DNA from: Thermoanaerobaculia bacterium
GTDB lineage: Bacteria; Acidobacteriota; Thermoanaerobaculia; Gp7-AA8
Assembly: GCA_036398925.1 (NCBI GenBank)
Contig: DASWOB010000095.1
Location: 22,616 to 86,615 of the forward strand
Reading direction: 5' to 3'
DNA: 64,000 nucleotides
Shown: piece after piece, positions 1 through 25,738 of the stretch
How positions within the stretch are numbered: the first letter of the stretch is position 1
Layout of the letters: each line of letters opens with the position of its first letter
Notes under the pieces: generated by a model
What the model was told of the DNA's origin: nothing
Databases searched by the model: none
Seen by the model: the letters and a program-made list of their open reading frames with translations, nothing else
Translations under genes and position numbers: made by a program

Positions 1-520
1 CCACCTGGCAGCGGAGGTTGCCCGGCTTCTGGCAGGCCTCCACCAGCTCGCGCCGCCGGCGGGCGATCAGGCGGGTGCGGTCCGCATCAGTGGTGTTCTT
101 CGGGAACGTGCCGAGGACCTGTTTGGTCACGTCCTCGATGGCGGTGGTGACGTAGACGCGCGCGTCGGGCGAGGCGGGGATCTCGTCCTTGATCGTCTTC
201 GCGAGGAAGCCGTTGGTGAGGACGTCATTCTGCGGCGTGGCGTTGTACTGCAGCGAGCCGGCCACGCAGTGATGGTTCGTGGCGATGAGCCCCTGCGGCG
301 AGACGAAGGTACCGCTGCATCCGGTGAGCTGGACGATGGCGCCCATCGGATAGCCGGTGAGGTCGGCGAACGAGTTCGCGTCGATCTTGAGGCCGAGGGC
401 CTCGAGCTCGCTCTTGAGCGCCGGGACCTGCTGCGGCATCCACATGCCGTCGTCAGCGACGGCCGGTACGGCGAGAGCCAGCGCGAAGAATGCGCCGGCG
501 AAGGTCTTCTTCAGGTTCAT
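1..520 (-). CDS. S46-family dipeptidyl-peptidase (DPP7/DPP11-like), N-terminal part; gene continues beyond window start
   Basis: Minus-strand translation from ATG at 520 gives MNLKKTFAGAFFALALAVPAVADDGMWMPQQ... The signal peptide followed by DGMWMP is the hallmark N-terminus of S46 peptidases. The frame stays open to position 1. It is absent from the ORF track because no stop lies in the window. Confidence 0.7.
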   Translation of the reverse strand, partial: MNLKKTFAGAFFALALAVPAVADDGMWMPQQVPALKSELEALGLKIDANSFADLTGYPMGAIVQLTGCSGTFVSPQGLIATNHHCVAGSLQYNATPQNDVLTNGFLAKTIKDEIPASPDARVYVTTAIEDVTKQVLGTFPKNTTDADRTRLIARRRRELVEACQKPGNLRCQV

Positions 521-580: not shown

Positions 581-2770
581 TCATTGGGATGAGTAGGAGA
601 GGGTGATGTTGCGCTGTAACGGAGCGTTGATGCGGCCGACGCGCTGGTAGATGTACGGCTCACCTCCGCGCTTCGCAATGAAGAGCTCGTACGCCCCCGG
701 CGCAAGAAACTCCGGCAGCACGACCGAGCCATCGAGCCCGCTGCCATGCAGTTGATACGCGTTCATCCCGTTGACCTCGGCCAGATCATCGAGCGCGCCG
801 ATCGGGATGAACCCGCCCCCCGCCGGTACGGCCATGACCATGTAGACCTTTTTCGGCGGAGCGTTGTCCGGCAGCAGCGTGGCCACTCCCGCGCTCGGCG
901 GATGCAGGATGATCGTATTGTCGACGTCGCTCTGCAGGGTAGTCATCCCGAGGGCGTGCCGCGCCGCGGCGACGTAGAACATCGTGCCGGGCTCGGGCGC
1001 GCTGTCGAACGAGAAACGGCCGTTCGCATCGGTCTGCGTGAAGAAGTGGCCCTGCATGGTGAGCTCATTTTGGTAACCGCCGGTTACGCGTGCGCCACGG
1101 AGCGGAACGCCGTGCGTGTTAACCACGCGGCCGCGAATGCCGCGGCTTTTCTCGAGCCGGATGACGTGCTCGGTGTTGTTTTCGCTGATGAGAATCTCGA
1201 GGTCGCGGGCGCGATAGCCTTTGGCCTGGATGTGGAGGTGGGCTTTACCGTCGGGGTAATCAGTGACAACAAGACGGCCGTCGGGGCTGCTTTCATCGCC
1301 GCCCACCTGCGCACGTTCGCCGGCGTATGCGAAGCGCCGCCAGATCATCGCCTTGACCGGTGTGCCGGTGGTTGCGTCGATGACGCGGAGCACGAAACCG
1401 CTACGGGGCAGCTCGAGATCGGCGCGGACGGAGTTGCGATTGGTGGTATCGACTTCCATGCGCGCATTACCGGACCTCAACCCCTCGCCGCCCGCGGGAA
1501 TCGTGTAGAGCTGCACGGGTCCCGACTGCCACACCAGAACGCGATACACCCCGGCATCATTCGTACGGGTCTCTGCCAGTTCGACGCTTCCGTCGCGCTC
1601 CTCGGTCGCCCGAACGATCGTGTTCGGCACCGGTTCGTCCCGCCGCGTCACACGCCCATAGATCTCCACTGACCGAGGCGCGACGTCGACGACGGTCAGC
1701 TCGTTGGCTACATCGACATCGCGATAGAGGATCAGGTTGCCGGTCGCACTCTCGATCGTGATCCGCTTCAGACCGTAGTCTCCGACGCGCAAACGCGTCT
1801 CGCCGTCCCGCAACTCGGTGACCGCCTTACGGGTGAAGCGATGCGAGCGCTCGTCCTCCCGAGTACTCCATCCGAGCTTCGCATCCCGAAAGATCTTTTC
1901 GTCGCGCGGCAGAACGGTGCGCACCAGGATCGTGGCCTCCGGCCGCAGACGCACATCGGGTAATGCGACCCGCTGCACTTCCTTCAATTGCGTCCGCACT
2001 GTCGCCGCTGTGGCGAAACCGCTTGCCACGATTCGCCAACGAATCGACATGGGCAACGGACCGACGGACGGGAACGTAATCACACCATTCCGATCGGTCG
2101 TGCCGCTCCAGCGACGTCCATACAATGTGCGGTTCAATTCGGCATTGAGGATGTCGCCCGGAGGATTCCACTCCACGCGCGCACCGGCAAGAGCGACATT
2201 GCGTTTCACGTCAATCACTCGTACGGAAACAGGTGCCGTCGGCTCACAGGCAAGCGCGCCGACGTCAGTCGGCTGCCCCGCCTTGATCACCATGCCGGAG
2301 CGAATGCGCGTAGCGCTGGTCGCTCCCAATGCGGCGCCCTGATAAAGACCCGCGGCAAGTCGCACCTCGAATGTGCCGGTCGCATCTACGGCAAACGGGC
2401 GTTCCTCCGGTTGTGACGCGCCGGCGCGTTGCAGCAGCCAGGCGAACGATTCACGGGCCGGCGGCTTCGCGCGCTGCAATGTGCCACGCAGAATGCCCAA
2501 CTCGCGCAGGGTCAACGGCCGCTTTGCCTCGAGGTCTGCTTGCGTGAACGCCGTCGGCTCGAAGCGCGACATCCCGACGCTCCATGGCAGTGGCAGGTCG
2601 TCAGGCGCGATGAACTTGCCGCCACTGATAGCAACCGACCGCACGTCGTCGCCCGATCGCAACGTGATGGCGAGCAGCGATTGAGGCGGCTCGACACGAA
2701 CCGCAACGGTCGCGGCCCGCGTTGAGACGGTGATGAGCAGAGCCGCGAACAGCAACGTTGCGCGGCGCAT
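581..2770 (-). CDS. large secreted multi-domain protein with repeated carboxypeptidase-regulatory-like (CarboxypepD_reg/prealbumin-like) beta-sandwich domains
   Basis: 729 aa ORF. N-terminal signal peptide MRRATLLFAALLITVSTRAATVAV. Repeated motifs such as IRGRVVNTHGVPLRGARVTG and GSVELAETRTNDAGVYRV are typical of CarboxypepD_reg domains. The start overlaps or abuts the stop of the upstream small Cys-rich gene. Confidence 0.75.
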   Translation of the reverse strand: MRRATLLFAALLITVSTRAATVAVRVEPPQSLLAITLRSGDDVRSVAISGGKFIAPDDLPLPWSVGMSRFEPTAFTQADLEAKRPLTLRELGILRGTLQRAKPPARESFAWLLQRAGASQPEERPFAVDATGTFEVRLAAGLYQGAALGATSATRIRSGMVIKAGQPTDVGALACEPTAPVSVRVIDVKRNVALAGARVEWNPPGDILNAELNRTLYGRRWSGTTDRNGVITFPSVGPLPMSIRWRIVASGFATAATVRTQLKEVQRVALPDVRLRPEATILVRTVLPRDEKIFRDAKLGWSTREDERSHRFTRKAVTELRDGETRLRVGDYGLKRITIESATGNLILYRDVDVANELTVVDVAPRSVEIYGRVTRRDEPVPNTIVRATEERDGSVELAETRTNDAGVYRVLVWQSGPVQLYTIPAGGEGLRSGNARMEVDTTNRNSVRADLELPRSGFVLRVIDATTGTPVKAMIWRRFAYAGERAQVGGDESSPDGRLVVTDYPDGKAHLHIQAKGYRARDLEILISENNTEHVIRLEKSRGIRGRVVNTHGVPLRGARVTGGYQNELTMQGHFFTQTDANGRFSFDSAPEPGTMFYVAAARHALGMTTLQSDVDNTIILHPPSAGVATLLPDNAPPKKVYMVMAVPAGGGFIPIGALDDLAEVNGMNAYQLHGSGLDGSVVLPEFLAPGAYELFIAKRGGEPYIYQRVGRINAPLQRNITLSYSSQ

Positions 2771-2772
2771 GA

Positions 2773-3060
2773 CTAGATCAGGCAGTTGCCGTAGATGTCG
2801 GTGTAGCCGCAGCTATCGCCGTCATCCCTTTCGCCGCGCCAATGGCATTCACCCCCGACCTCGCACGTCGTTCTTCCGGTAAACGTATCGACGACGATTC
2901 CGTCCTTGCACCAGTAGTCGCCGGCAGGGGCACCGTAACGACAAAAACCAAATCCGTTCGGCGACTTGGCGCAGTACGGACAGGCATCGACGACGGACGG
3001 TACTGCAACAGTGAGAACGAAAATCACCAGGGTCAGGAACAACCGGCACATTCTCGACAT
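2773..3060 (-). CDS. small secreted cysteine-rich protein (95 aa; signal peptide then CPYC..., 8 Cys)
   Basis: Signal peptide MSRMCRLFLTLVIFVLTVAVPSVVDA followed by mature CPYCAKSPNGFGFCRYG...NCLI. A GAGGAG Shine-Dalgarno lies 6 nt upstream of the ATG. It is directly upstream of, and co-oriented with, the large CarboxypepD_reg protein. Confidence 0.65.
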   Translation of the reverse strand: MSRMCRLFLTLVIFVLTVAVPSVVDACPYCAKSPNGFGFCRYGAPAGDYWCKDGIVVDTFTGRTTCEVGGECHWRGERDDGDSCGYTDIYGNCLI

Positions 3061-3198
3061 GACGTCTCCTCTGGTCCTGAGGAGCGCTCAGTGAAGCACG
3101 GTTATGCCGCGCACGTCAATACATCCATCTTTAAATAGACTCTGAAACGTTCCTTCCTCCAACGTCACTACTCCTTCGCAGACGAAAGGAGAAGAGCA

Positions 3199-3522
3199 AT
3201 GTCGAACACGTTCTACGCAATTGTCTTCCTGGCCGGATTCGTTGACATCTGTCCCCCGAACTGGCCGTTCCCCCGGCGCTGGCCCATCCCGCCGCCGCCT
3301 CCGCCGTGGAGATTCCTCACTGACATTCTTGGCGGTGTTGCCGGCGTTGCCGGCGGGGTGGTCACGCAACGGCTGGCGGGCGGGGGAAACTCGGGGGTGC
3401 TGCTGACCGCCGTGGCGGTGGCAGTCCTGTCAGGCGCCGCGGTCCGGCAGGTCGCGGGCTATTTCGGCAAGCCGACGCCGCAGCCGGCGATCGAGACGCT
3501 GAAGGCGCCGAGCCTGGCGTAG
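3199..3522 (+). CDS. small proline-rich / Gly-Ala-rich hydrophobic protein (107 aa), hypothetical
   Basis: Strong SD (AAAGGAGAAG) 8-10 nt upstream of the ATG at 3199. N-terminal hydrophobic segment, PPPPPPW run, then a GVAGVAGG and AVAVAVLSGAAV hydrophobic region. No recognisable family. Confidence 0.45.
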   Translation: MSNTFYAIVFLAGFVDICPPNWPFPRRWPIPPPPPPWRFLTDILGGVAGVAGGVVTQRLAGGGNSGVLLTAVAVAVLSGAAVRQVAGYFGKPTPQPAIETLKAPSLA

Positions 3523-3572: not shown

Positions 3573-5177
3573 TTACATCGAAGACATGGCGTTGAGGAAC
3601 TCGCCGTTGGAGCGGGTCTTGTCGAGTTTCTCCACCAGCAGTTCCATCGATTCGACGGTCGACAGCGGGGAAAAGACTTTGCGCAGGACCCAGATGCGAT
3701 TGAGCTCGTTCTTCTCCAGCAGCAGTTCTTCTTTACGCGTGCCGGAGCGATTGATGTCGATGGCCGGGAAGACGCGCTTGTCGGAGAGCTTGCGGTCGAG
3801 GTGCACTTCCATGTTGCCGGTGCCCTTGAACTCCTCGAAGATGACGTCGTCCATGCGCGAGCCGGTATCGATGAGGGCCGTGGCGATGATGGTCAGCGAG
3901 CCGCCCTCTTCCACATTACGCGCGGAGCCGAAGAAGCGCTTCGGACGCTGCAGCGCGTTGGAGTCGACACCGCCCGACAGGACCTTGCCCGACGGCGGAA
4001 CGACGGTGTTGTAGGCGCGCGCCAGGCGGGTGATCGAGTCGAGCAGGATCACCACGTCGCGCTTGTGCTCGACGAGGCGCTTGGCCTTCTCGATGACCAT
4101 TTCGGCGACCTGCACGTGGCGCGAGGCCGGCTCGTCGAACGTCGAGGAGATGACCTCTCCCTTGACGCTGCGCTGCATGTCGGTGACTTCTTCCGGGCGC
4201 TCGTCGATCAGCAGGACGATGAGCGTGATCTCCGGATGATTGGTGGTGATCGAGTTGGCGATCGACTGGAGGAGCATCGTCTTGCCGGTACGCGGCGGCG
4301 CGACGATCAGACCGCGCTGCCCCTTGCCGACCGGCGCGATGAGGTCGAGCACACGCGACGACATGTACTGCGGTACCTCGAGGCGGATGCGCCCCTGCGG
4401 ATAGAGCGGGGTGAGGTTGTCGAAGAGGATCTTGTCGCGTGCGACGTCGGGATGCTCGAAGTTCACTGCCTCGACCTTGATCAGGGCGAAGTAGCGCTCC
4501 CCTTCCTTCGGCGGACGCACCTGGCCGGAGACCGTGTCGCCGGTGCGGAGGTCGAAACGGCGGATCTGCGACGGCGAGACGTAAATGTCGTCCGGGCCCG
4601 GCAGGTAGTTGTACTCCGGCGCACGCAGGAATCCGAACCCGTCCGGCAGGCACTCCAGCACACCCTCGGAGAAGATCAGGCCCGACTTCTCGGTCTGCAC
4701 CTGCAGGATGCCGAAGATCAGGTCCTGCTTGCGCATGCCGGAGGCGTTCTCGACGCCGAGCTCTTTGGCGAGCTTCGACAGATCCGGCAGCTTGATCTCT
4801 TTCAGCATGCGGATGTCGAGGGTCTCGGAGGCGGGCTGCTGCTGCGCGGGCGCGGCGGCGGCTTTCGCCTTGCCGTTGCCGTTGCCACCGTGCTCTTTTT
4901 CGGGAGCGGCTTCGCTGGCGGGCTCCGGCTGGGGAGCGCTCTTGGCGGCTTTCGGCTCGGCTGCCGGTTTCGCCTCAGCCACCGGCTTCGCCTCGATCAC
5001 CGGCTCGTCGGCGACGGCCGGCGCGGGCTCTTCCGCTGCGGGTGCCGGACCTTCTTCGACGGGAGCCGCGGCAGCCGCTTTCTTCCGTGGCGCGCGTTTC
5101 GGCTTCTCCGGCTTTTCGGCCGGAGCGTCCGGCTCCAGTACCGCGGTGGCTTCGTTGTCCTGTTCGTGTTGTGCCAT
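3573..5177 (-). CDS. rho: transcription termination factor Rho, with ~110 aa low-complexity A/P/E/K-rich N-terminal extension
   Basis: Start chosen at MAQHEQDNE (ATG at 5177), the first ATG after the engB stop. Conserved Rho core motifs are present: ...LPDGFGFLR..., [31 protein letters not shown] (P-loop), [22 protein letters not shown]. The ORF-track 641 aa frame over-extends into engB. Confidence 0.93.
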
Positions 5178-5191
5178 GTGGCTTCCTCGCT

Positions 5192-5770
5192 TCACAGTCG
5201 CGCGTAGATCTCGCGGCGAATGTCGTCGATTCCTTTTTTCGTTACCGCCGATGCCGGGATCAGCTCCGCGGGGTCGACGTTCAAATCGGTGGCAATGGCC
5301 CGCCGGCTGACGGTGAGCTGATTGTTGGAGAGTTTGTCGCTCTTGGTGAGGACGACCTTCTCGCCGATGGTCAGCGAGCGTGCCCATTCGTGCATCTGCT
5401 GATCGTGCTCGCCCGGGGTGCGGCGGGCGTCGAGGAGAAGAAAGATCAGGCGGAGCTCCGCGGAGTTTTCGAGGTAGCCGCGCACCAGCGTCCCCCACTC
5501 CTTCATCATGGTTTTGGCCACTTTTGCGTATCCGTAGCCGGGGAGATCGACGAGGTAGAACTTTTCGTTGATCAGATAGAACTGCACCGCCTGCGTCTTG
5601 CCCGGTGTCTGTGAGACGCGCGCGACGCCTTTGCGTTTCAGCACGGCGTTGATCAGCGACGATTTGCCGACATTGGAGCGCCCGACCATCGCGAACTGAG
5701 GCCGGCCGTCACGCGGGAAATCGTCAGGCTGGTACGCCGCCCGAGAGAATTCGACTGTACGGATATCCAA
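5192..5770 (-). CDS. engB: ribosome biogenesis GTP-binding protein EngB/YsxC (YihA)
   Basis: [14 protein letters not shown] (G1), [10 protein letters not shown] (G3) and TKSDKL (G4) motifs. 192 aa, typical length. Confidence 0.9.
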
Positions 5771-20276: not shown

Positions 20277-21677
20277 ATGACAGCGCGCAAACCTTTGGTT
20301 ATTCTGCATTGCGGTCCAATGCTCCAACGCTTCCTCTCCCTCGTCTCGGCCCACCCCGATGCCGTTGCGGTCATCGAAGGTGACACCGGCCTCGTCCTCT
20401 CCCGTGCGGCGCTGCTCGCTCGTGCGGAGGAGATGGCCGCGCGTCTGGCCGCGGCCGGCCTGCGCGCCAGCGATGCCGTGGCGATGCAGCTGCCGAACTC
20501 GTCGGAGCTGATCGCGACCGTCATCGCCGCCCTGCAGCTGAAGCTGGTCATCGTCCCGATCGATCGTGACGCTTCCGACACAGAAGTCGCGACGATCCTC
20601 GGCCATTTTTCGATCAAGGGTCTCGCTTATCGCGACGACCGCGGCTCTCACGCGGTGGCGATCTCGACGCGGGCCGTGACCTCCAGACCGAACGTGCCGG
20701 CCGAGACGCGGCTGATCAAGCTGACGTCCGGCTCGACCGGACGGCCGAAGGGGATCGCCGTCAGCGAGGCGAACCTGATCGCCGACGCGCTCCACATCTG
20801 CACGACGATGGACATTCATCCATCCGACCGCAACCTCGGCGCGATCCCACTCTCCCATTCATACGGCTTCTCGAACCTCGTCACGCCTCTCCTGATCCAG
20901 GGAACGCCAGTGGTGGTTTCCAACGACTACCTCCCGCAGTCGCTGATCGAGCTCGCCAACCGCTACGGCTGCACGGTCGTGCCGCTGATCCCGATGGTCT
21001 TCGAACACCTCACGGCCGTTGCACACGGACACTTCGAGACGGTGCGCACGTTCCTTTCGGCCGGCGCGCCGTTGCCGGCGAGCACGTCGCGCCGCTTCCG
21101 CGAGCGGTTCGGAACGGACGTGCATTCGTTTTACGGCTGCAGCGAATGCGGCGGCATCACGTACGACCGCGCCGGAGCGGCCGTGGAGCGGGGCAGCGTC
21201 GGTGAGCCGATGGTCGGCGTGACGCTGACGGTCGACGGGCCGCGGCTGCGCGTACGCAGCGAGGCGGTGGCGCTCGGCTATCTCTTCGACGCGGAGACGT
21301 TCGAGCCGTTCGAGGCCGGCGCGTTCCAGACCGACGACCTGGTGGAGCTCCGCGACGGGGAGGTGTTCCTGACCGGCCGCGCGAGTGACCTCATCAACAC
21401 CGCGGGCAAAAAGGTCAACCCGCGCGAGGTCGAGGCGGTGCTGCTGCAGATCGAAGGCGTGCTCCAGGTCAAAGTCTACGGCGAGCAGGCCGGCGCGCGC
21501 GGCGAGGTCGTTGCGGCCGCGATCGTAGCAACGCCGAACGTGACCCGCGAGCAGATCCGCGAGTTCTGCCGCGCGCGGCTCTCGCTGCACAAGGTGCCGC
21601 GGATCCTGAAGCTCATCGATCGGATTCCGGTCGACGAGCGCGGCAAGGTCAAGCGCGCGGCGCTGGCGATGCTGTAG
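20277..21677 (+). CDS. AMP-dependent synthetase/ligase (acyl/aryl-CoA ligase or acyl-ACP synthetase family)
   Basis: AMP-binding motif LTSGSTGRPKGIAV. A10 Lys region near the C-terminus (GKVKRAAL). An alternative start at ATG 20319 (MLQRFL...) is possible. It is divergent from the ACP operon and its 3' end overlaps the halogenase gene by about 29 nt (convergent). Confidence 0.8.
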   Translation: MTARKPLVILHCGPMLQRFLSLVSAHPDAVAVIEGDTGLVLSRAALLARAEEMAARLAAAGLRASDAVAMQLPNSSELIATVIAALQLKLVIVPIDRDASDTEVATILGHFSIKGLAYRDDRGSHAVAISTRAVTSRPNVPAETRLIKLTSGSTGRPKGIAVSEANLIADALHICTTMDIHPSDRNLGAIPLSHSYGFSNLVTPLLIQGTPVVVSNDYLPQSLIELANRYGCTVVPLIPMVFEHLTAVAHGHFETVRTFLSAGAPLPASTSRRFRERFGTDVHSFYGCSECGGITYDRAGAAVERGSVGEPMVGVTLTVDGPRLRVRSEAVALGYLFDAETFEPFEAGAFQTDDLVELRDGEVFLTGRASDLINTAGKKVNPREVEAVLLQIEGVLQVKVYGEQAGARGEVVAAAIVATPNVTREQIREFCRARLSLHKVPRILKLIDRIPVDERGKVKRAALAML

Positions 21678-23211
21678 CGACCGCCTCGACCTTCTTCTTC
21701 CGCAGCTTCTTCCACTGCAGCCGCACGTTGTCGAGCTCCGCTTTCAACCAGAACTTCACGCCCCGTCCTACCATCTGCAGCGGCGCGAGATTGAGGTTGA
21801 AGTACGCCTTAATGCGGCGGCCGTCGTTGTACTTGCCACCCTCGCCGACGGCGCGGCGCGCCTCCGCGATCGCCTTGAAGCGGCGGTTGTACGTCCGCAT
21901 CATGTGGTAGCTGACGAAGGCCGGCTTCGGCCCGAGCACAGGCATCCAGAAGAACTTCTTCATGAAGCGATACGCCGGGATGACCACGAACATGTAGTAC
22001 TGCGCCGTGTCGATGAGAAACGCGGCGCTCAGGAGATCCGACTCTCCCATGTAGTAGTACTTGTCCTTGTACGCGGCGCGGAAGAAGCGCCAGTAGGAGC
22101 GGACGAAGGTGGTGTTGTGCTCCGCGATCGCCGGCGCCACATCCTTCCCCATCGCGTCCATCTTGACGATCAGCATCGTTGCCTCGGCCGTGAACGAGGC
22201 GTGATCGAGGCCGGGCGAGTAGTACGGATCGAGAAACGCCGCCGCATCGCCCAGCAACGCCCACCCTTTCCCCATGTACTGCTTCGTGGCATAGGCGAGG
22301 TGCGAGTAGAAGCGGAGGTCGTCGAGCCGCGGCTCCGCGCCTTCGAGGATCTCGGCCAGCGAGGGGATGTTCCGGAGGAAGGCGACAAAGTCTTCCGCCC
22401 GGTTCTTGCTGTGATGCAGGTCGACCAGACGCTTGTCGAAGACCACGCCGATGCTGGTCTCGCCGTTGCCGAGGGGGATCACCCAGATCCAGTAGCCGTA
22501 GCCGACGTAGTGATTGGTGCCGAGGCGGCGCGACCCGATGTTACGGGAGGCCAGGTCGCTCTTCGCCGCGATGTCGTCGATGTGGCGGACGTTCTTCCAG
22601 CGGCACCAGATGGCGGCGGTGGGATGCTCGTCGTTCCGCTCGATCAGATTCAGCTTGCGGCCGATGAAGTTCACCCGGCCGCTCGCGTCGAGCAGCCAGC
22701 GGCAGGTGAGCTCGCGCGTCTCGCCGTTCACCTCGACCTTCACCGTATTGTTGAAGTCGGCGAAGGTGACGTCGAGCGCTTTCGCCGGACGCCAGAGCTC
22801 GGCGCCCTCGGCAACAGCGGTCGCGAGCAGATGCTCGTCGAGCGCATCGCGCCTCAGCTGGAAGGACGGAACCGCGCTGCGGAGGAAGCCGCCTGCCTCG
22901 GTGGCGTTCTCGTGGCCCGTCACCTTCGCGTTCGAGAACCAGTAACGGAGCCCCTCTTTCGGGAGGTGCTCGCTCTCCAGGTGCTGCCACATCCTGAGGC
23001 GGCGGGTGAGGAACATCGCCGACATCTCGGTGGTGGCCTCACCGACCTTCTCATCGAAGGCGGTGGCCTTCTCGATGATCAGCACCCGGAGGTCGGGGCA
23101 CTCGCGGCGCAGCAGGATGGCCGTCGAGGCGCCGCTGAAGGCCCCTCCGAGAATGATGACGTCGTACCGGTCGGACATTCGGCCATCCAAACGCATAGGA
23201 CGGCTGTTCAT
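21649..23211 (-). CDS. flavin-dependent halogenase (tryptophan-halogenase family, PF04820-like)
   Basis: N-terminal FAD GxGxxG (ILGGAFSG). KVGEATTE (GxGEAT-like). Diagnostic WxWxIP (GYWIWVIPLGNG) and C-terminal FxxPxxSxG (FLDPYYSPG). Confidence 0.75.
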   Translation of the reverse strand: MNSRPMRLDGRMSDRYDVIILGGAFSGASTAILLRRECPDLRVLIIEKATAFDEKVGEATTEMSAMFLTRRLRMWQHLESEHLPKEGLRYWFSNAKVTGHENATEAGGFLRSAVPSFQLRRDALDEHLLATAVAEGAELWRPAKALDVTFADFNNTVKVEVNGETRELTCRWLLDASGRVNFIGRKLNLIERNDEHPTAAIWCRWKNVRHIDDIAAKSDLASRNIGSRRLGTNHYVGYGYWIWVIPLGNGETSIGVVFDKRLVDLHHSKNRAEDFVAFLRNIPSLAEILEGAEPRLDDLRFYSHLAYATKQYMGKGWALLGDAAAFLDPYYSPGLDHASFTAEATMLIVKMDAMGKDVAPAIAEHNTTFVRSYWRFFRAAYKDKYYYMGESDLLSAAFLIDTAQYYMFVVIPAYRFMKKFFWMPVLGPKPAFVSYHMMRTYNRRFKAIAEARRAVGEGGKYNDGRRIKAYFNLNLAPLQMVGRGVKFWLKAELDNVRLQWKKLRKKKVEAVATASPAPRA

Positions 23212-23212
23212 T

Positions 23213-23920
23213 TCAGAAGATCTTTTCGATCGCCTTCTGGATCGCGACGGCGCCGCCGCCGATCAGAATGCCGAAATACACCAGCGTGGCGACGTTCATC
23301 AGGTGCCCGAGCAGGATGCAGACGCCGTCGCGCTGCATCATGCCGATGGCAAAGAAGAGGATGGCCACGGCCGGCAGCGTATTGCTGAACGGGATGAGGC
23401 CGAACGGCGCCATCAGCAGCACCGCGCCGAGGATGAGCGCGGAGTTGTTGACCACGCTCATGAACCGGCCGCTGGTCAGCCCCCGCATGCGCAGCGGACG
23501 GCTGATCCGCTCCAGACGGCGGAACCACTTGAGACCGCGAGCCATCCCGCCGCGCAGCTTCTCGCTCGAGACCGCCCGCCGCTTGAGCCAGTCCGGCAGC
23601 CAGATCGGACGATTGAGGAGACGGCTGAACGACAGCAGGAGAATCGCCCCGCCGAAGACCGTGCTGACGCCGGGGATCGAAACCGGGACCAGGAAAATGA
23701 TGGTGAGGAAGGCGGTCAGCAGCATGATGCCCTCGCGTCCGACGAGATCGCGGATCTCGACGAGCGTCACCCCTTCCGGCGGGAGGCGCTCGATCGCCGC
23801 CATCAGCTTTTCGGCGATCGGCTCGCCATCATCGTCCATCGTCACGCTCATCCGTTCACCTCGAAGCGGCGCATCTTGCGCGAATGGGGCCAGCGAGGCA
23901 ACCCTCATTACGGCAGGCAC
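23213..23920 (-). CDS. ExoD-family membrane protein (exopolysaccharide synthesis ExoD-like)
   Basis: Polytopic membrane protein whose sequence profile matches the ExoD family (FLTIIFLVPVSIPG..., LPAVAILFFAIGMMQRDG). An alternative start lies at MSVTMDDD (23851). Its stop abuts the halogenase start. Confidence 0.6.
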   Translation of the reverse strand: MPAVMRVASLAPFAQDAPLRGERMSVTMDDDGEPIAEKLMAAIERLPPEGVTLVEIRDLVGREGIMLLTAFLTIIFLVPVSIPGVSTVFGGAILLLSFSRLLNRPIWLPDWLKRRAVSSEKLRGGMARGLKWFRRLERISRPLRMRGLTSGRFMSVVNNSALILGAVLLMAPFGLIPFSNTLPAVAILFFAIGMMQRDGVCILLGHLMNVATLVYFGILIGGGAVAIQKAIEKIF

Positions 23921-23944: not shown

Positions 23945-25318
23945 TTACCTGGCAAAGCGGAGCGTGGCCCGGTGCGTCCCCTCGCTCACGTCGAGGACCA
24001 CCGGCGCCGCGACGTCGACCGACGACGCGAGCAGCGCCTCCGCCTGCGCGTCGTTGGCGTACGGCCAGAACTCGTATCGGCCTTTGGGCAGGTTGCGCAG
24101 CACGAGTCGCCCGTCGTCGTCGGTGTTCAGCACCAGCCCGGCCCGGCGTGCGAGCTTGACCACCTCGGGCGGGATGATCTCGCCGTCGTAGCGCATCAGC
24201 AGCCAGAGGTGCGGTACCGGTTCGTTCTTCGTCGTCAGCGTGGAGACTTCCACCCTCGAGGTGGCTGCCGGCAGCGCGATGCGCATCGCACTCGCCTCGC
24301 AAACGCGCAGCACGCCGAGAGAACCGCGCGGCGAGAAGACGTAGATCGCGCTGCGGCCGCTCGCCGGAACCGGCAGCGTGATGCGGCCCAGTCCGTCGGT
24401 GAAGCCGTTCGAATGAACGACCGAGCCGGTGGCACAGACGACGACCGCTTTCGTTGCGGGCGCGCCGGTGGAGTCGACGACTGTGATGGTGCGTCTCGCG
24501 CCGCGTTGCATGGTGATCGTTCGCTGCTCGTCGGCACGCTCACCGAGCCTCAACTCTTCGCGCGCGCTCACGAGGAAATCGTCCGCGGCGACACGCAGGG
24601 TGTGCACGCCGGCGGCAACGCCGCGGAAGGAGAACGATCCATCGGCGCCGCTCCGTCCGGTGAGGAGGCGCGAGGCGCGCTCGTCGCTGCGACGCAACGT
24701 AACCTTCGCGCCAGCGATCGGTTTCCCTTCCTCATCGACGACCTTTCCACGCACGGTGCGCATCGGGATCGCGAACGTCCAGTTCATCGCATCGCCCCGG
24801 AGCGACGCCTGCGTCGAGACCAGCCCTTGCAGACCGCCACCGTACAACTCGACCTGAACGTCGCCTTCCTGCCAGTAGGTCGCGGCGAACGTTCCTCTCG
24901 CATCGGTCGCCACCTCGGCGTCCCACAGGTCGTCATTGCGCACGAAGCGCACCTTCGCATTCGCGAGCGGCACGCCATCATCGGTGATCGCACCGCGAAG
25001 CGTCTTACCGTGCAGCGGGATGGTCATCGCCGAGAGGCCGTCACCGATGCGCATCTGCGCCGCGGCGCGTTCGAGCGGACCGGCTCCGCGCACCTGAATG
25101 GCGATGATGCCTGGCGCGAGATCGCCGATCGCCAACGTGCTGCCGTTCGGCGGCATGCGATGGATGGCGGTCCAACGCATCCCTTCCTCATGATCGCCGC
25201 GAACGCCGACGTGCACTTCCAGCGGTCCACGCATCTCGCCGCGGTCGATCGTCAGTTGCAGCGTGGCCGCGCGCGCGTCGAACGCGGCCAGGAGGATGAG
25301 AGCAAAGAGGGTGCGCAT
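23945..25318 (-). CDS. large secreted protein with repeated CarboxypepD_reg-like domains (paralogue of 581-2770 module)
   Basis: Start at MRTLFALILLAAFDARA (signal peptide). Repeats VRGKVVDEEGKPIAGAKVTL and ...SGADGSFSFRGVAAGVHTL. Directly downstream of the small Cys-rich gene. Confidence 0.75.
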   Translation of the reverse strand: MRTLFALILLAAFDARAATLQLTIDRGEMRGPLEVHVGVRGDHEEGMRWTAIHRMPPNGSTLAIGDLAPGIIAIQVRGAGPLERAAAQMRIGDGLSAMTIPLHGKTLRGAITDDGVPLANAKVRFVRNDDLWDAEVATDARGTFAATYWQEGDVQVELYGGGLQGLVSTQASLRGDAMNWTFAIPMRTVRGKVVDEEGKPIAGAKVTLRRSDERASRLLTGRSGADGSFSFRGVAAGVHTLRVAADDFLVSAREELRLGERADEQRTITMQRGARRTITVVDSTGAPATKAVVVCATGSVVHSNGFTDGLGRITLPVPASGRSAIYVFSPRGSLGVLRVCEASAMRIALPAATSRVEVSTLTTKNEPVPHLWLLMRYDGEIIPPEVVKLARRAGLVLNTDDDGRLVLRNLPKGRYEFWPYANDAQAEALLASSVDVAAPVVLDVSEGTHRATLRFAR

Positions 25319-25426
25319 GAGGATCTCCTTCGAAATCTGCTTTGAATGCGACGGACGCGAGCCTCTCCCGGCGTGACGAGAGAGGCTCGCGCTCCACAAC
25401 CGGAGCGTGCGGGAGCGAGCGTTGGG

Positions 25427-25738
25427 TTATCGCGCTTCGGCGAAAGCAGTCTTCGTTTCGACCGGCTTCGCGTTGACGGTGAGCGCTTCGTGCGAGGTCT
25501 CGACGGAGACCAGCATCAGCGTACCGGCGCCCTGTTCCTCGGCGGCCGACGGGAAACAGGTGGCATTCGCGACACGACACTCCCAGGTGTCGGGCGAGGT
25601 GAACACCGTCCGGCAACCGCCCGGACCTTCATCCGGGATGCACTCGCTGAGGTAGTCGTCGCAGTAGCCGCAGATCGCAAATGCGGGGGCGCTGAGAGCG
25701 AGGGTGAACATGACCACGAGGAGAAGCCTGAGTTTCAT
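25427..25738 (-). CDS. small secreted cysteine-rich protein (103 aa; signal peptide then ICGYC..., 6 Cys + Ala/Glu/Thr-rich tail)
   Basis: MKLRLLLVVMFTLALSAPAFA / ICGYCDDYLSECIPDEGPGGCRTVF... A GGAAGG Shine-Dalgarno lies upstream of the ATG at 25738. It sits inside a longer spurious ORF in the track. Same signal-peptide-then-CxYC architecture as 2773-3060. Confidence 0.6.
   Translation of the reverse strand: MKLRLLLVVMFTLALSAPAFAICGYCDDYLSECIPDEGPGGCRTVFTSPDTWECRVANATCFPSAAEEQGAGTLMLVSVETSHEALTVNAKPVETKTAFAEAR

What the first reader, a model, noticed from the sequence alone, without database searches (positions are those of the whole stretch)
581..3060. Two-gene secreted module (small CxYC Cys-rich protein + large multi-CarboxypepD_reg protein), copy 1 of 2 in window
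A 95-aa protein whose mature end begins CPYC (8 Cys) is translationally coupled to a 729-aa secreted protein built of repeated CarboxypepD_reg beta-sandwich domains. The second gene starts where the first stops.

An analogous pair occurs at 23945-25738: ICGYC, 6 Cys, plus a 457-aa CarboxypepD_reg protein. The two small proteins share the signal-peptide-then-C-x-Y-C start but little else. The large partners are paralogous in domain type, not sequence.

Stand-alone CarboxypepD_reg proteins are abundant but uncharacterised in Acidobacteriota. A recurrent pairing with a disulfide-rich peptide suggests a conserved functional unit, for example a secreted ligand or bacteriocin-like peptide with a binding, carrier or immunity partner.
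Basis: partly seen in the sequence, partly recalled or inferred. Interest (0 to 1): 0.6.

Follow-up and report, generated by a model that had tools for sequence, protein, structure and literature searches.

The report
Conserved secreted mini-protein plus scaffold operon

Summary
Both pairs lie on the minus strand.

**Pair 1.** A 95-aa protein (2773-3060) has a signal peptide followed by CPYC and 8 Cys. It sits 2 nt upstream of a 729-aa secreted protein (581-2770).

**Pair 2.** A 103-aa protein (25427-25738) sits upstream of a 457-aa protein (23945-25318).

**Not chance.**
- These are the only two ORFs in 64 kb with a signal peptide and at least 6 Cys.
- They precede the only two ORFs matching the large-protein profile.
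It has no Pfam, NCBIfam or PDB relative.
- In all 12 distinct loci examined, plus one borderline locus, a family member is followed directly by a large-protein homologue, amid unrelated flanking genes.
- Junctions are mostly -20 to +9 nt. The two genes co-diverge (r=0.88) and both are under purifying selection.

**Corrections.**
- The conserved motif is CxxC at the mature N-terminus, not CxYC.
- The two large proteins are collinear homologues over about 400 residues.
- The two small proteins are not detectably related.

**Function (inferred).** The most likely reading is a co-made non-covalent envelope or extracellular complex. In it, a scaffold would carry a disulfide-rich head protein. Nothing supports a bacteriocin/immunity role.

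The parts
2773..3060 (-). Small gene of pair 1.
   Evidence: ORF. Homologues at 66-83% identity. Sixty cluster representatives found by profile HMMER. No Pfam or NCBIfam match. dN/dS 0.15-0.26.
2983..3060 (-). Signal peptide of small protein 1 (aa 1-26), with predicted signal peptidase I cleavage at V-D-A|C.
   Evidence: Read from the sequence. Across the family, position -3 is Ala in 33/61 and position -1 is Ala in 41/61 before the first Cys. Leu at -3, as in a lipobox, occurs in only 3/61.
2845..2982 (-). Head domain (aa 27-72). Motif: C-x2-C-x2-S-P-N-G-[WF]-G-F-C-R...G...C...V-x-D-x-F-x-G-R-T-x-C-x5-C. It has six (near-)invariant Cys and four predicted beta-strands.
   Evidence: Invariant columns in the alignment. 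AlphaFold2 pLDDT is about 90 for this core, with strands at 27-32, 38-44, 50-58 and 63-69.
2776..2844 (-). Variable acidic/Gly-rich linker followed by a conserved extreme C-terminal tail (C-G-Y-T-D-I-Y-G-N-C-L-I). The family consensus is C-x-W-T-D...hydrophobic end.
   Evidence: Alignment. Low pLDDT of 57-59. The last residue is Y/F/V/I/L in 59/61 members.
3066..3071 (-). Shine-Dalgarno-like GAGGAG, 6 nt upstream of the small gene's ATG.
   Evidence: Read directly from the sequence.
2768..2775 (-). Gene junction TAG-tc-ATG, a 2-nt spacer consistent with translational coupling.
   Evidence: Related loci show spacers from -20 to +9 nt, including TGATG overlaps, with one longer spacer of about 30-60 nt (spacers of 8-9 nt from the gene tables).
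581..2770 (-). Large gene of pair 1. It encodes a 729-aa Sec-exported protein of about eight beta-sandwich domains, three of them recognised as CarboxypepD_reg. It has no conserved Cys or His.
   Evidence: Pfam. Homologues at 43-84% identity. Invariant columns. AlphaFold2 pLDDT 84.6 and pTM 0.70. Only generic tandem beta-sandwich matches in the PDB.
584..895 (-). C-terminal domain D8 of large protein 1 (aa 626-729). It is the most conserved domain, has no Pfam match, contains the two longest of the protein's four helices (10 and 5 residues), and is the least confidently modelled. Proposed docking site for the small protein (inference).
   Evidence: Conservation by domain: 0.73 mean column identity and 23 invariant residues. 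pLDDT blocks of 57-83 and helices 657-666 and 671-675.
584..1852 (-). Region of large protein 1 (aa 307-729) that is collinear with large protein 2.
   Evidence: hhalign A4 vs A5: probability 98.8%, E 6.5e-17, 396 aligned columns.
25427..25738 (-). Small gene of pair 2. It encodes a 103-aa protein with a signal peptide (AFA|ICGYC), a 6-Cys head, a conserved LxLVSVET segment and a low-complexity tail.
   Evidence: Homologues at 44-67% identity in three lineages.
25353..25395 (-). Intercistronic GC-rich stem-loop (15+3 bp) between small gene 2 and large gene 2.
   Evidence: Fold of the spacer: -48.8 kcal/mol, z -3.0. Hairpins occur at the same place in L006 and L003 with different sequence but preserved pairing.
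23945..25318 (-). Large gene of pair 2. It encodes a 457-aa exported multi-beta-sandwich protein, a shorter paralogue of large protein 1 that lacks the N-terminal ~300 residues.
   Evidence: Pfam 98.6 bits. hhalign. Downstream partners conserved at 64% and 44% identity in L003 and L006.

Best explanation
This is a self-contained two-gene operon found in Thermoanaerobaculia-type Acidobacteriota. Two diverged copies lie in this window.

Shown
- Both products carry Sec signal peptides.
- In pair 1 they are made from one message with tight, often overlapping, gene junctions.
- The first product is a mini-protein of about 70 residues.
  - Its mature N-terminus is the first Cys of a CxxC motif.
  - It has a four-stranded, disulfide-stabilised head.
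  - A variable Gly/Asp-rich linker follows.
  - It ends in a conserved tail (W-T-D ... hydrophobic or aromatic last residue).
- The second product is a protein of about 710 residues made of about eight beta-sandwich domains. It has no conserved catalytic-type residues (no invariant Cys or His).
- The two genes are always together, move together between unrelated genomic contexts, and co-diverge.

Inferred
- The two proteins form a non-covalent complex in the periplasm or on/outside the cell.
- The large protein is a rigid scaffold.
- The small protein docks by its C-terminal tail, probably onto the scaffold's highly conserved C-terminal domain.
- The aromatic-rich head is presented as the binding or specificity element for an adhesin-like or substrate-capturing function.
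- Pair 2 is a paralogous module. Its scaffold is homologous, but its small partner has been replaced or has diverged beyond recognition. A hairpin between its genes probably lets the small protein be made in excess.

Confidence split: about 0.9 that this is a conserved co-functioning unit, and about 0.35 for the docking-complex mechanism.
For: Pairing
- Small-to-large adjacency holds in the window, L001, L008, L009, L010, L011, L016, L018, L020, L021, L023 and L027. It also holds in the borderline locus L025/26.
- Flanking genes are unrelated between these loci.
- Junctions range from -20 to +9 nt, including TGATG overlaps.
- Pairwise identities of small and large proteins correlate at r=0.88.
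- dN/dS is 0.13-0.26 for both genes.

Within the window
- There are only two ORFs with a signal peptide and at least 6 Cys, and only two large-HMM hits. They are each other's neighbours.

Small protein
- It has an A-x-A|C cleavage context, a conserved head and a hydrophobic C-terminal residue in 59/61 members.
- The head is modelled confidently and the tail is not.

Large protein
- Its model is good and compact (pTM 0.70), all-beta, and resembles tandem beta-sandwich adhesins, pilins and MG domains only generically.
- It has no invariant Cys or His, and 0-3 Cys per homologue, so any complex must be non-covalent.
- The C-terminal domain is the most conserved but the least confidently modelled.

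Paralogy
- The scaffolds of pairs 1 and 2 are collinear homologues.
Against: - No physical interaction has been tested. AlphaFold-multimer was not available.
- The docking site is inferred only from conservation and low pLDDT.
- Localisation (periplasm, outer membrane or medium) is unknown.
- No ligand is known, and the conserved aromatic residues may simply be the hydrophobic core of the head.
- Tail subtype b of the small family always has an odd number of Cys (7 or 9). The docking model does not explain this. It could point to a free thiol, metal binding or an intermolecular bond with something else.
- Pair 2 has a hairpin-containing spacer rather than coupling. Equimolar complex formation is therefore not a universal feature.
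Confidence: 0.4

Rival explanations
1. The small protein would be a secreted bioactive peptide (bacteriocin, defensin-like or signal). The large protein would be its carrier, immunity or binding partner.
For: - The small protein is Sec-exported and disulfide-rich, and it evolves somewhat faster than its partner.
- In pair 2 a conserved hairpin after the small gene resembles the arrangement after many structural or precursor genes. It would allow the small product to be made in excess.
- The small partner differs completely between the two paralogous modules, as is seen for diversifying effectors.
Against: - No transporter, protease or small membrane immunity gene is conserved nearby.
- The partner is a 700-aa exported beta-sandwich protein, unlike known immunity proteins.
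- None of 59 sequences match the cis-defensin Cys pattern taken from PMC11561630, and the mature model has no helix.
- There are no PADLOC hits.
- The small gene has dN/dS of 0.15-0.26, so there is no sign of diversifying selection.
- Tight translational coupling in pair 1 suggests matched production.
Confidence: 0.12
2. The small protein would be a dedicated assembly factor, cap or inhibitor for the large protein. For example, it could complete or block an incomplete beta-sandwich during export. It would not be a displayed functional head.
For: - The linkage is strict and the genes are coupled, with the small gene first.
- The conserved C-terminal strand-like tail ends in an aromatic or hydrophobic residue.
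- The most conserved domain of the large protein is modelled least confidently on its own.
Against: - The head domain, not only the tail, is highly conserved with invariant surface-type residues (S-P-N-G-W-G-F, G-R-T). That is more than a simple strand donor would need.
- No precedent family could be matched.
Confidence: 0.15
3. The module would handle metal or redox chemistry. The N-terminal CxxC, with a free alpha-amine on Cys1, would be a metal-binding or redox-active site, and the large protein would be a periplasmic metal-handling scaffold.
For: - CxxC is nearly invariant and sits exactly at the predicted mature N-terminus.
- Subtype b has an unpaired Cys.
- The large proteins show weak, sub-threshold domain-level similarity to DUF4198 and to NikL-type nickel/cobalt transporter subunits.
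Against: - Those similarities fall below the curated cutoffs, and they cover the generic transthyretin-like fold.
- There are no conserved His or Met ligands in either protein.
- No metal transporter, cytochrome or oxidoreductase is conserved nearby.
- The even Cys count (8) in subtype a fits four structural disulfides.
Confidence: 0.1
4. The adjacency would be chance, or the small ORF would not be a real gene.
For: High-GC genomes produce many spurious ORFs. Annotators skipped the small ORF in one MAG (L009).
Against: - The protein is conserved at the amino-acid level, with invariant Cys, across about 60 clusters.
- dN/dS is 0.15-0.26.
- A ribosome-binding site is present.
- Adjacency holds in 12 of 12 loci.
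- Only two such ORFs exist in 64 kb.
Confidence: 0.02

Closest known systems
Stand-alone multi-domain CarboxypepD_reg (PF13620) proteins of Acidobacteriota, annotated 'carboxypeptidase regulatory-like domain-containing protein'
   Same: The large proteins pass the Pfam threshold (75 and 98.6 bits) and are annotated this way in NCBI. They are exported, all-beta and non-enzymatic.
   Different: Only 3 of about 8 domains are recognised by Pfam. The N-terminal ~350 residues and the C-terminal domain have no family match. This subfamily has an obligatory upstream small partner, which is not a described feature of PF13620 proteins (no such report).
Tandem beta-sandwich surface proteins: Gram-positive pilins and adhesins (SpaA, RrgB, PitA, SdrD, B. 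anthracis TIE) and the MG domains of alpha-2-macroglobulin and complement
   Same: These are the best Foldseek matches, with E from 1e-10 to 1e-6 and probability up to 1.0. They share strings of Ig/transthyretin-like domains.
   Different: Global TM-scores are only 0.06-0.16. There is no sortase signal in the sequence, no CxEQ thioester motif, and no conserved Cys or isopeptide-type signature was looked for or found. The organism is a diderm.
Bacterial cis-defensins and other Sec-exported Cys-rich peptides (PMC11561630)
   Same: A small size, a signal peptide and several disulfides.
   Different: None of 59 sequences match the CX(2,18)CX(3)CX(2,12)CX(4,17)CXC pattern. The model is all-beta with no cysteine-stabilised helix. 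There is no structural match in the PDB (best E 0.89).
Ly6/uPAR three-finger domains (recalled from memory as a lead only)
   Same: The mature N-terminus carries x-C-x-x-C, the protein is small and all-beta, and it has 3-5 disulfides.
   Different: There is no C-terminal CC-x(3-5)-CN motif and no Foldseek hit to any three-finger structure.
Systems that join subunits by a terminal beta-strand (donor-strand complementation in chaperone-usher and type V pili). This is a 'works like' analogy only.
   Same: There is a conserved, strand-like extreme C-terminus on one partner, and beta-sandwich domains on the other.
   Different: No usher, chaperone or pilin family signature was found. No polymerisation is implied. 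The interaction itself is untested.

Membership tests
Pfam PF13620 CarboxypepD_reg (large proteins) | Score above the Pfam gathering threshold (32.3 bits) | tested here: met
   Large protein 1 scores 75 bits and large protein 2 scores 98.6 bits.
G-[RT]-T-x-C-x(4-6)-C, then a C-terminal W-T-D hydrophobic tail | tested here: met
   The window protein is the query. Sixty representatives at E<=1e-3 and 30 at E<=1e-10. Invariant Cys columns.
Small-protein family 1, tested for the pair-2 small protein | Detectable sequence or profile similarity of the mature region | tested here: not met
   hhalign on mature regions gives probability 0.3%. Shuffle z-scores are 0.1-3.6. The 70% probability came from the signal peptides.
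Same large-protein family for pairs 1 and 2 | Collinear multi-domain homology that includes the non-Pfam C-terminal domain | tested here: met
   hhalign probability 98.8%, E 6.5e-17, large1 residues 307-729 against large2 residues 44-447.
Bacterial lipoprotein (small protein) | Lipobox [LVI][ASTVI][GAS]C at the end of the signal peptide | tested here: not met
   Position -3 is Ala in 33/61 and Leu in only 3/61. Position -2 is often D, F or L. The pattern is A-x-A|C, which is a signal peptidase I site.
Cis-defensin (CS-alpha-beta) | Cys pattern CX(2,18)CX(3)CX(2,12)CX(4,17)CXC and a cysteine-stabilised helix | tested here: not met
   0 of 59 sequences match (pattern from PMC11561630). There is no helix in the mature model.
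Alpha-2-macroglobulin-like protease trap (large protein) | Thioester CxEQ motif and an MG-ring architecture | tested here: not met
   No CxEQ in any of 11 homologues. TM-score to A2M structures is 0.10.
Bacteriocin plus immunity pair | Dedicated exporter or processing gene, and a small membrane or cytoplasmic immunity protein next to the peptide gene | tested here: not met
   Neighbours differ in every locus and include no such genes. The partner is a 700-aa exported protein.
Known anti-phage defence systems | Match to a PADLOC model | tested here: not met
   No hits for any of the four proteins.
Heteromeric complex of small and large protein | Physical interaction | not testable with these tools
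   No multimer prediction was available. Only linkage, coupling and co-divergence were measured.

The most novel reading that the evidence does not exclude
The small proteins would be a new fold class of bacterial disulfide-rich mini-proteins. Each would be an obligate, exchangeable 'head' subunit that plugs by its C-terminal tail into a dedicated beta-sandwich scaffold. This would make a modular two-component surface-binding system specific to Thermoanaerobaculia. In it, paralogous scaffolds carry unrelated heads, as pair 1 and pair 2 do, in the manner of interchangeable specificity cassettes.
Probability: 0.25. Interest if true: 0.65.

Novelty: new variant of a known kind. Interest (0 to 1): 0.45.

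Why it matters
CarboxypepD_reg proteins are annotated in these Acidobacteriota MAGs only by domain name, as 'carboxypeptidase regulatory-like domain-containing protein', and the literature searches run here turned up no functional study of the stand-alone ones.

This work shows that one subfamily never occurs without a specific small disulfide-rich partner. That partner is missing from the Pfam and NCBIfam family databases, and a MAG annotation skipped it in at least one locus. This gives a concrete, testable handle: co-express the pair, map the disulfides, and look for the complex and its ligand.

It also adds a well-defined new mini-protein family with a confidently predicted but unmatched fold. 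Finally, it shows how small-ORF under-annotation can hide the obligatory partners of large 'hypothetical' envelope proteins.

Tried and rejected
- **First DNA pattern scan of genome contigs.** I mistyped the pattern with 62 N instead of 60, and it found nothing. The corrected pattern covers only about half of the family. It gave 3 true hits, all Thermoanaerobaculia, plus 4 chance hits in 185,579 species genomes. It gave 3 true hits in JGI metagenomes.
- **Homology of the two small families.** hhalign on full-length sequences gave 70% probability. I rejected this because the alignment was driven by the signal peptides and did not align the CxxC motifs. With signal peptides trimmed, probability fell to 0.3%.
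- **Lipoprotein idea.** Rejected.
- **Tat export of the large protein.** Considered because some homologues have an RR motif, but it is not conserved (N-termini).
- **Alpha-2-macroglobulin, defensin, three-finger and defence-system memberships.** All tested and not met.
- **Hevein/chitin-binding resemblance of S-x-x-G-W-G-F-C.** Considered, but Pfam gives no hit even at E<=1.
- **A conserved third gene.** None was found. Peptidase S46 follows the module only in the window and its close relative L001.
- **Literature searches.** They found no description of this pairing.
Full report
**1. Observation**

The features are real but lie on the minus strand.

Pair 1:
- ORF 2773..3060(-) encodes 95 aa. 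It has a hydrophobic signal peptide ending V-D-A, then CPYC, with 8 Cys in the mature part.
- A GAGGAG ribosome-binding site lies 6 nt upstream.
- The next gene, 581..2770(-), encodes 729 aa and starts 2 nt after the stop (TAG-tc-ATG). It has its own signal peptide.
- Pfam CarboxypepD_reg matches at 75 bits in three stretches.

Pair 2:
- The small gene 25427..25738(-) encodes 103 aa with AFA|ICGYC and 6 Cys.
- The large gene 23945..25318(-) encodes 457 aa and scores 98.6 bits for CarboxypepD_reg.

The pair-2 small protein and the pair-1 large protein are identical to NCBI entries from a Thermoanaerobaculia MAG.

**2. Is it more than chance?**

I scanned all six frames and all start codons of the 64-kb window for ORFs of 50-160 aa with a signal-peptide-like N-terminus and at least 6 Cys. 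Only these two genes came back. An HMM of the large protein hits only two window ORFs, and they are the two downstream partners. Both kinds of gene are therefore rare in the window, and each small gene sits directly upstream of a large one.

- A word-indexed search found only four close relatives at 66-83% identity.
- A full HMMER profile search of 1.84 billion representatives found 60 proteins at E<=1e-3 and 30 at E<=1e-10. Nearly all are 88-133 aa.
- The 60 include two long repetitive proteins (P0065, P0076), which I judged spurious from their sequences and left out of alignment A3.

The alignment defines the family as follows:
- A signal peptide.
- C-x2-C-x-[YK]-S-P-N-G-[WF]-G-F-C-R ... G ... 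C ... V-x-D-x-F-x-G-R-T-x-C-x(4-6)-C.
- A Gly/Asp-rich linker of variable length.
- A terminal C-x-W-T-D ... hydrophobic tail.

The conserved motif is CxxC (CPYC, CWLC, CQRC, CEMC and others), not CxYC.

The residues before the first Cys are A-x-A. Position -3 is Ala in 33/61 and position -1 is Ala in 41/61. Leu at -3 occurs in only 3/61. This is a signal peptidase I site, not a lipobox, so the mature protein starts at the CxxC.

Three tail subtypes exist:
- Subtype a: C-W-W-T-D-L-Y-G-N-C-I-L-x-F/Y, with 8 Cys in 19/20 members.
- Subtype b: C-S-W-T-D-x(5-8), always with an odd Cys count of 7 or 9 (11/11).
- Subtype c: W-V-G-x-x-I-D-x-I-A-I-F.

The last residue is Y/F/V/I/L in 59/61 members.

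The family has no Pfam or NCBIfam match even at E<=1, no PDB sequence match at E<=10 and no PADLOC match.

AlphaFold2 with the 55-sequence alignment gives a confident four-stranded head. pLDDT is about 90 for residues 27-72, and the linker and tail are low-confidence. Foldseek against the PDB finds nothing, with a best E of 0.89.

**4. The pairing is strict**

I reached related loci in three independent ways:
- From small-protein homologues: L001/2, L021/22, L023/24, L027 and L025/26.
- From large-protein homologues at only 43-46% identity: L008, L009 and L010.
- From a degenerate DNA pattern for the small-protein motif: L011, L016, L018, L019 and L020.

Results:
- In all 12 distinct loci the small-family gene is immediately followed, on the same strand, by a homologue of the 729-aa protein. 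HMM E-values range from 1e-35 for a truncated copy down to 0.
- In L009 the small ORF had not been called by the MAG's annotators.
- The borderline family member P0078 has a first loop 5 residues shorter (z=7.3 against the window protein). It is followed by a more divergent multi-beta-sandwich protein.
- Flanking genes are unrelated from locus to locus. They include BioY/RpiA, MetH/PEMT, an aldo-keto reductase with peptidase M14, allantoicase with transthyretin, and a protein kinase. The pair therefore travels as a unit.
- Junctions run from a 20-nt overlap to a 9-nt spacer, with TGATG overlaps in L009 and L011. One locus has a longer spacer (spacers of 8-9 nt in L021 and L023).
- Pairwise identities of small and large proteins correlate at r=0.88.
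- dN/dS is 0.15-0.26 for the small gene and 0.13-0.26 for the large gene.
- All named sources are Thermoanaerobaculia or Acidobacteriota MAGs. The rest are soil-type metagenomes.

**5. The large protein**

- Eleven homologues at 43-100% identity align end to end.
- There is no invariant Cys or His. Individual homologues have 0-3 Cys. This excludes a conserved catalytic thiol or imidazole and a conserved intermolecular disulfide.
- The AlphaFold2 model is good (pLDDT 84.6, pTM 0.70). It is all-beta with about eight sandwich domains. It has four short helices, two of them in the last domain.
- Foldseek returns only generic tandem beta-sandwich proteins such as pilins, adhesins and MG domains of alpha-2-macroglobulin, at TM 0.06-0.16.
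- A profile search of PDB sequences gives nothing significant.
- Conservation is highest in the C-terminal domain (aa 626-729; 0.73 mean column identity, 23 invariant residues). The third and first domains follow. The Pfam-recognised middle domains are the least conserved.
- The C-terminal domain is also the least confidently modelled.

**6. Relation of the two pairs**

Profile-profile alignment shows otherwise. They are collinear homologues over large1 residues 307-729 and large2 residues 44-447, including the non-Pfam C-terminal domain (probability 98.8%, E 6.5e-17). Large protein 2 is a shorter paralogue that lacks the N-terminal ~300 residues.

The small partners are not detectably related:
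- The 70% hhalign probability on full-length sequences came from the signal peptides.
- It drops to 0.3% on mature regions.
- Shuffle z-scores are 0.1-3.6.
- They share only the layout: a signal peptide, CxxC at or next to the mature N-terminus, a six-Cys head and a C-terminal extension.

Pair 2 is conserved in three lineages, with large partners at 64% and 44% identity. There the whole proC-DinB neighbourhood is syntenic, so pair 2 alone is weaker evidence for linkage.

Pair 2 has a spacer of 80-105 nt holding a 14-15-bp GC-rich hairpin. The pairing is kept while the sequence changes across the three lineages.

**7. Mechanism**

Shown:
- It is a two-gene operon.
- Both products are exported.
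- The genes are co-inherited and co-diverging.
- The junctions indicate coupled synthesis in pair 1.
- The large protein is non-enzymatic.
- No conserved covalent link between the two proteins is possible.

Inferred:
- The two proteins form a non-covalent complex.
- The small protein's layout (folded head, flexible linker, invariant extreme C-terminal strand-like tail) suggests a tail-docking subunit.
- The large protein's C-terminal domain is the most conserved but poorly self-modelled, which makes it the most likely receptor.
- The large protein would then be a rigid scaffold presenting the head for binding, either adhesin-like or substrate-capturing.

I put about 0.9 on 'conserved co-functioning unit' and about 0.35 on this specific mechanism.

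Rival explanations:
- Bioactive peptide plus carrier or immunity protein: 0.12.
- Assembly factor or cap for the large protein: 0.15.
- Metal or redox site at the N-terminal CxxC: 0.10. The odd Cys count of subtype b keeps this alive.
- Chance adjacency: 0.02.

**8. Comparison with known systems and novelty**

The large proteins are members of PF13620-containing proteins. The small family matches nothing known. Tests for defensin, three-finger, lipoprotein, alpha-2-macroglobulin, bacteriocin-immunity and defence-system memberships were all not met. Literature searches found no description of the pairing.

Interest is moderate at 0.45. The linkage is unusually clean and the mini-protein fold is unmatched, but there is no functional lead yet.

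Noticed in passing
window 25353-25395 (minus strand); L006:2715-2748; L003 around 4477-4515: A GC-rich 14-15-bp stem-loop lies in the spacer between small gene 2 and large gene 2. It is conserved in three lineages, with changed sequence but preserved pairing. In L006 it is followed by GUUUUC. It could be an attenuator or an mRNA-stabilising element that sets a small:large ratio above 1.
   Followed up: partly
L009:5630-5977 (NCBI GCA_035248585.1, contig DATFHJ010000411.1): The family-1 small gene (115 aa) was not called in the gene table for this MAG, although it is conserved. Small partners of this module are under-annotated.
   Followed up: yes
window 1-520 (minus strand): This is the N-terminal 173 aa of a Peptidase S46 (dipeptidyl-peptidase-like) gene, lying directly downstream of the large gene and running off the window. 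The same neighbour occurs in L001 but not in more distant loci. A weak terminator-like hairpin at 563-582 separates it from the module.
   Followed up: partly
window 3199-3522 (plus strand): A 107-aa ORF lies between Rho and the module on the opposite strand. It has a hydrophobic start, a PPPPPPW stretch and Gly/Val-rich segments, and no Pfam match. It is unclear whether it is a real gene.
   Followed up: no
window 3573-5498 (minus strand): The Rho ORF is 641 aa. The Rho_N domain starts only at residue 232, preceded by an Ala/Pro/Glu/Lys-rich low-complexity extension. Part of this may come from an over-long GTG start.
   Followed up: no
Small family 1, alignment A3 plus loci L008-L020: Tail subtype b (CxWTD... 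with no second tail Cys) always has an odd number of Cys (7 or 9; 11/11 members), while subtype a has 8 (19/20). One Cys in subtype b must be unpaired, or bonded to something outside the protein.
   Followed up: partly
L025:157-441 and 473-2056; L026: The borderline family member P0078 (FCKRCSVGLC..., first loop 5 aa shorter) is followed by a protein of more than 505 aa. That protein is only weakly similar to both large-protein HMMs (E 4e-10 and 6e-11). This looks like a third, more divergent variant of the module.
   Followed up: partly
L021:2750-4921: A 723-aa exported protein with no Pfam hit sits directly upstream of the small gene in this locus. It does not match the large-protein HMMs.
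   Followed up: partly
L010:8281-14217: Next to the module in this locus are a 767-aa Peptidase M14 gene and a 2470-aa protein. The latter combines SdrD_B, CarboxypepD_reg and NOMO-like beta-sandwich repeats with a Peptidase C25 domain.
   Followed up: no
window 21649-23920 (minus strand): Downstream of pair 2 lie an ExoD-family membrane protein (23213-23920) and a tryptophan-halogenase-like FAD enzyme (21649-23211). Upstream are DinB_2 and proC. This neighbourhood is syntenic in the relatives of pair 2.
   Followed up: partly
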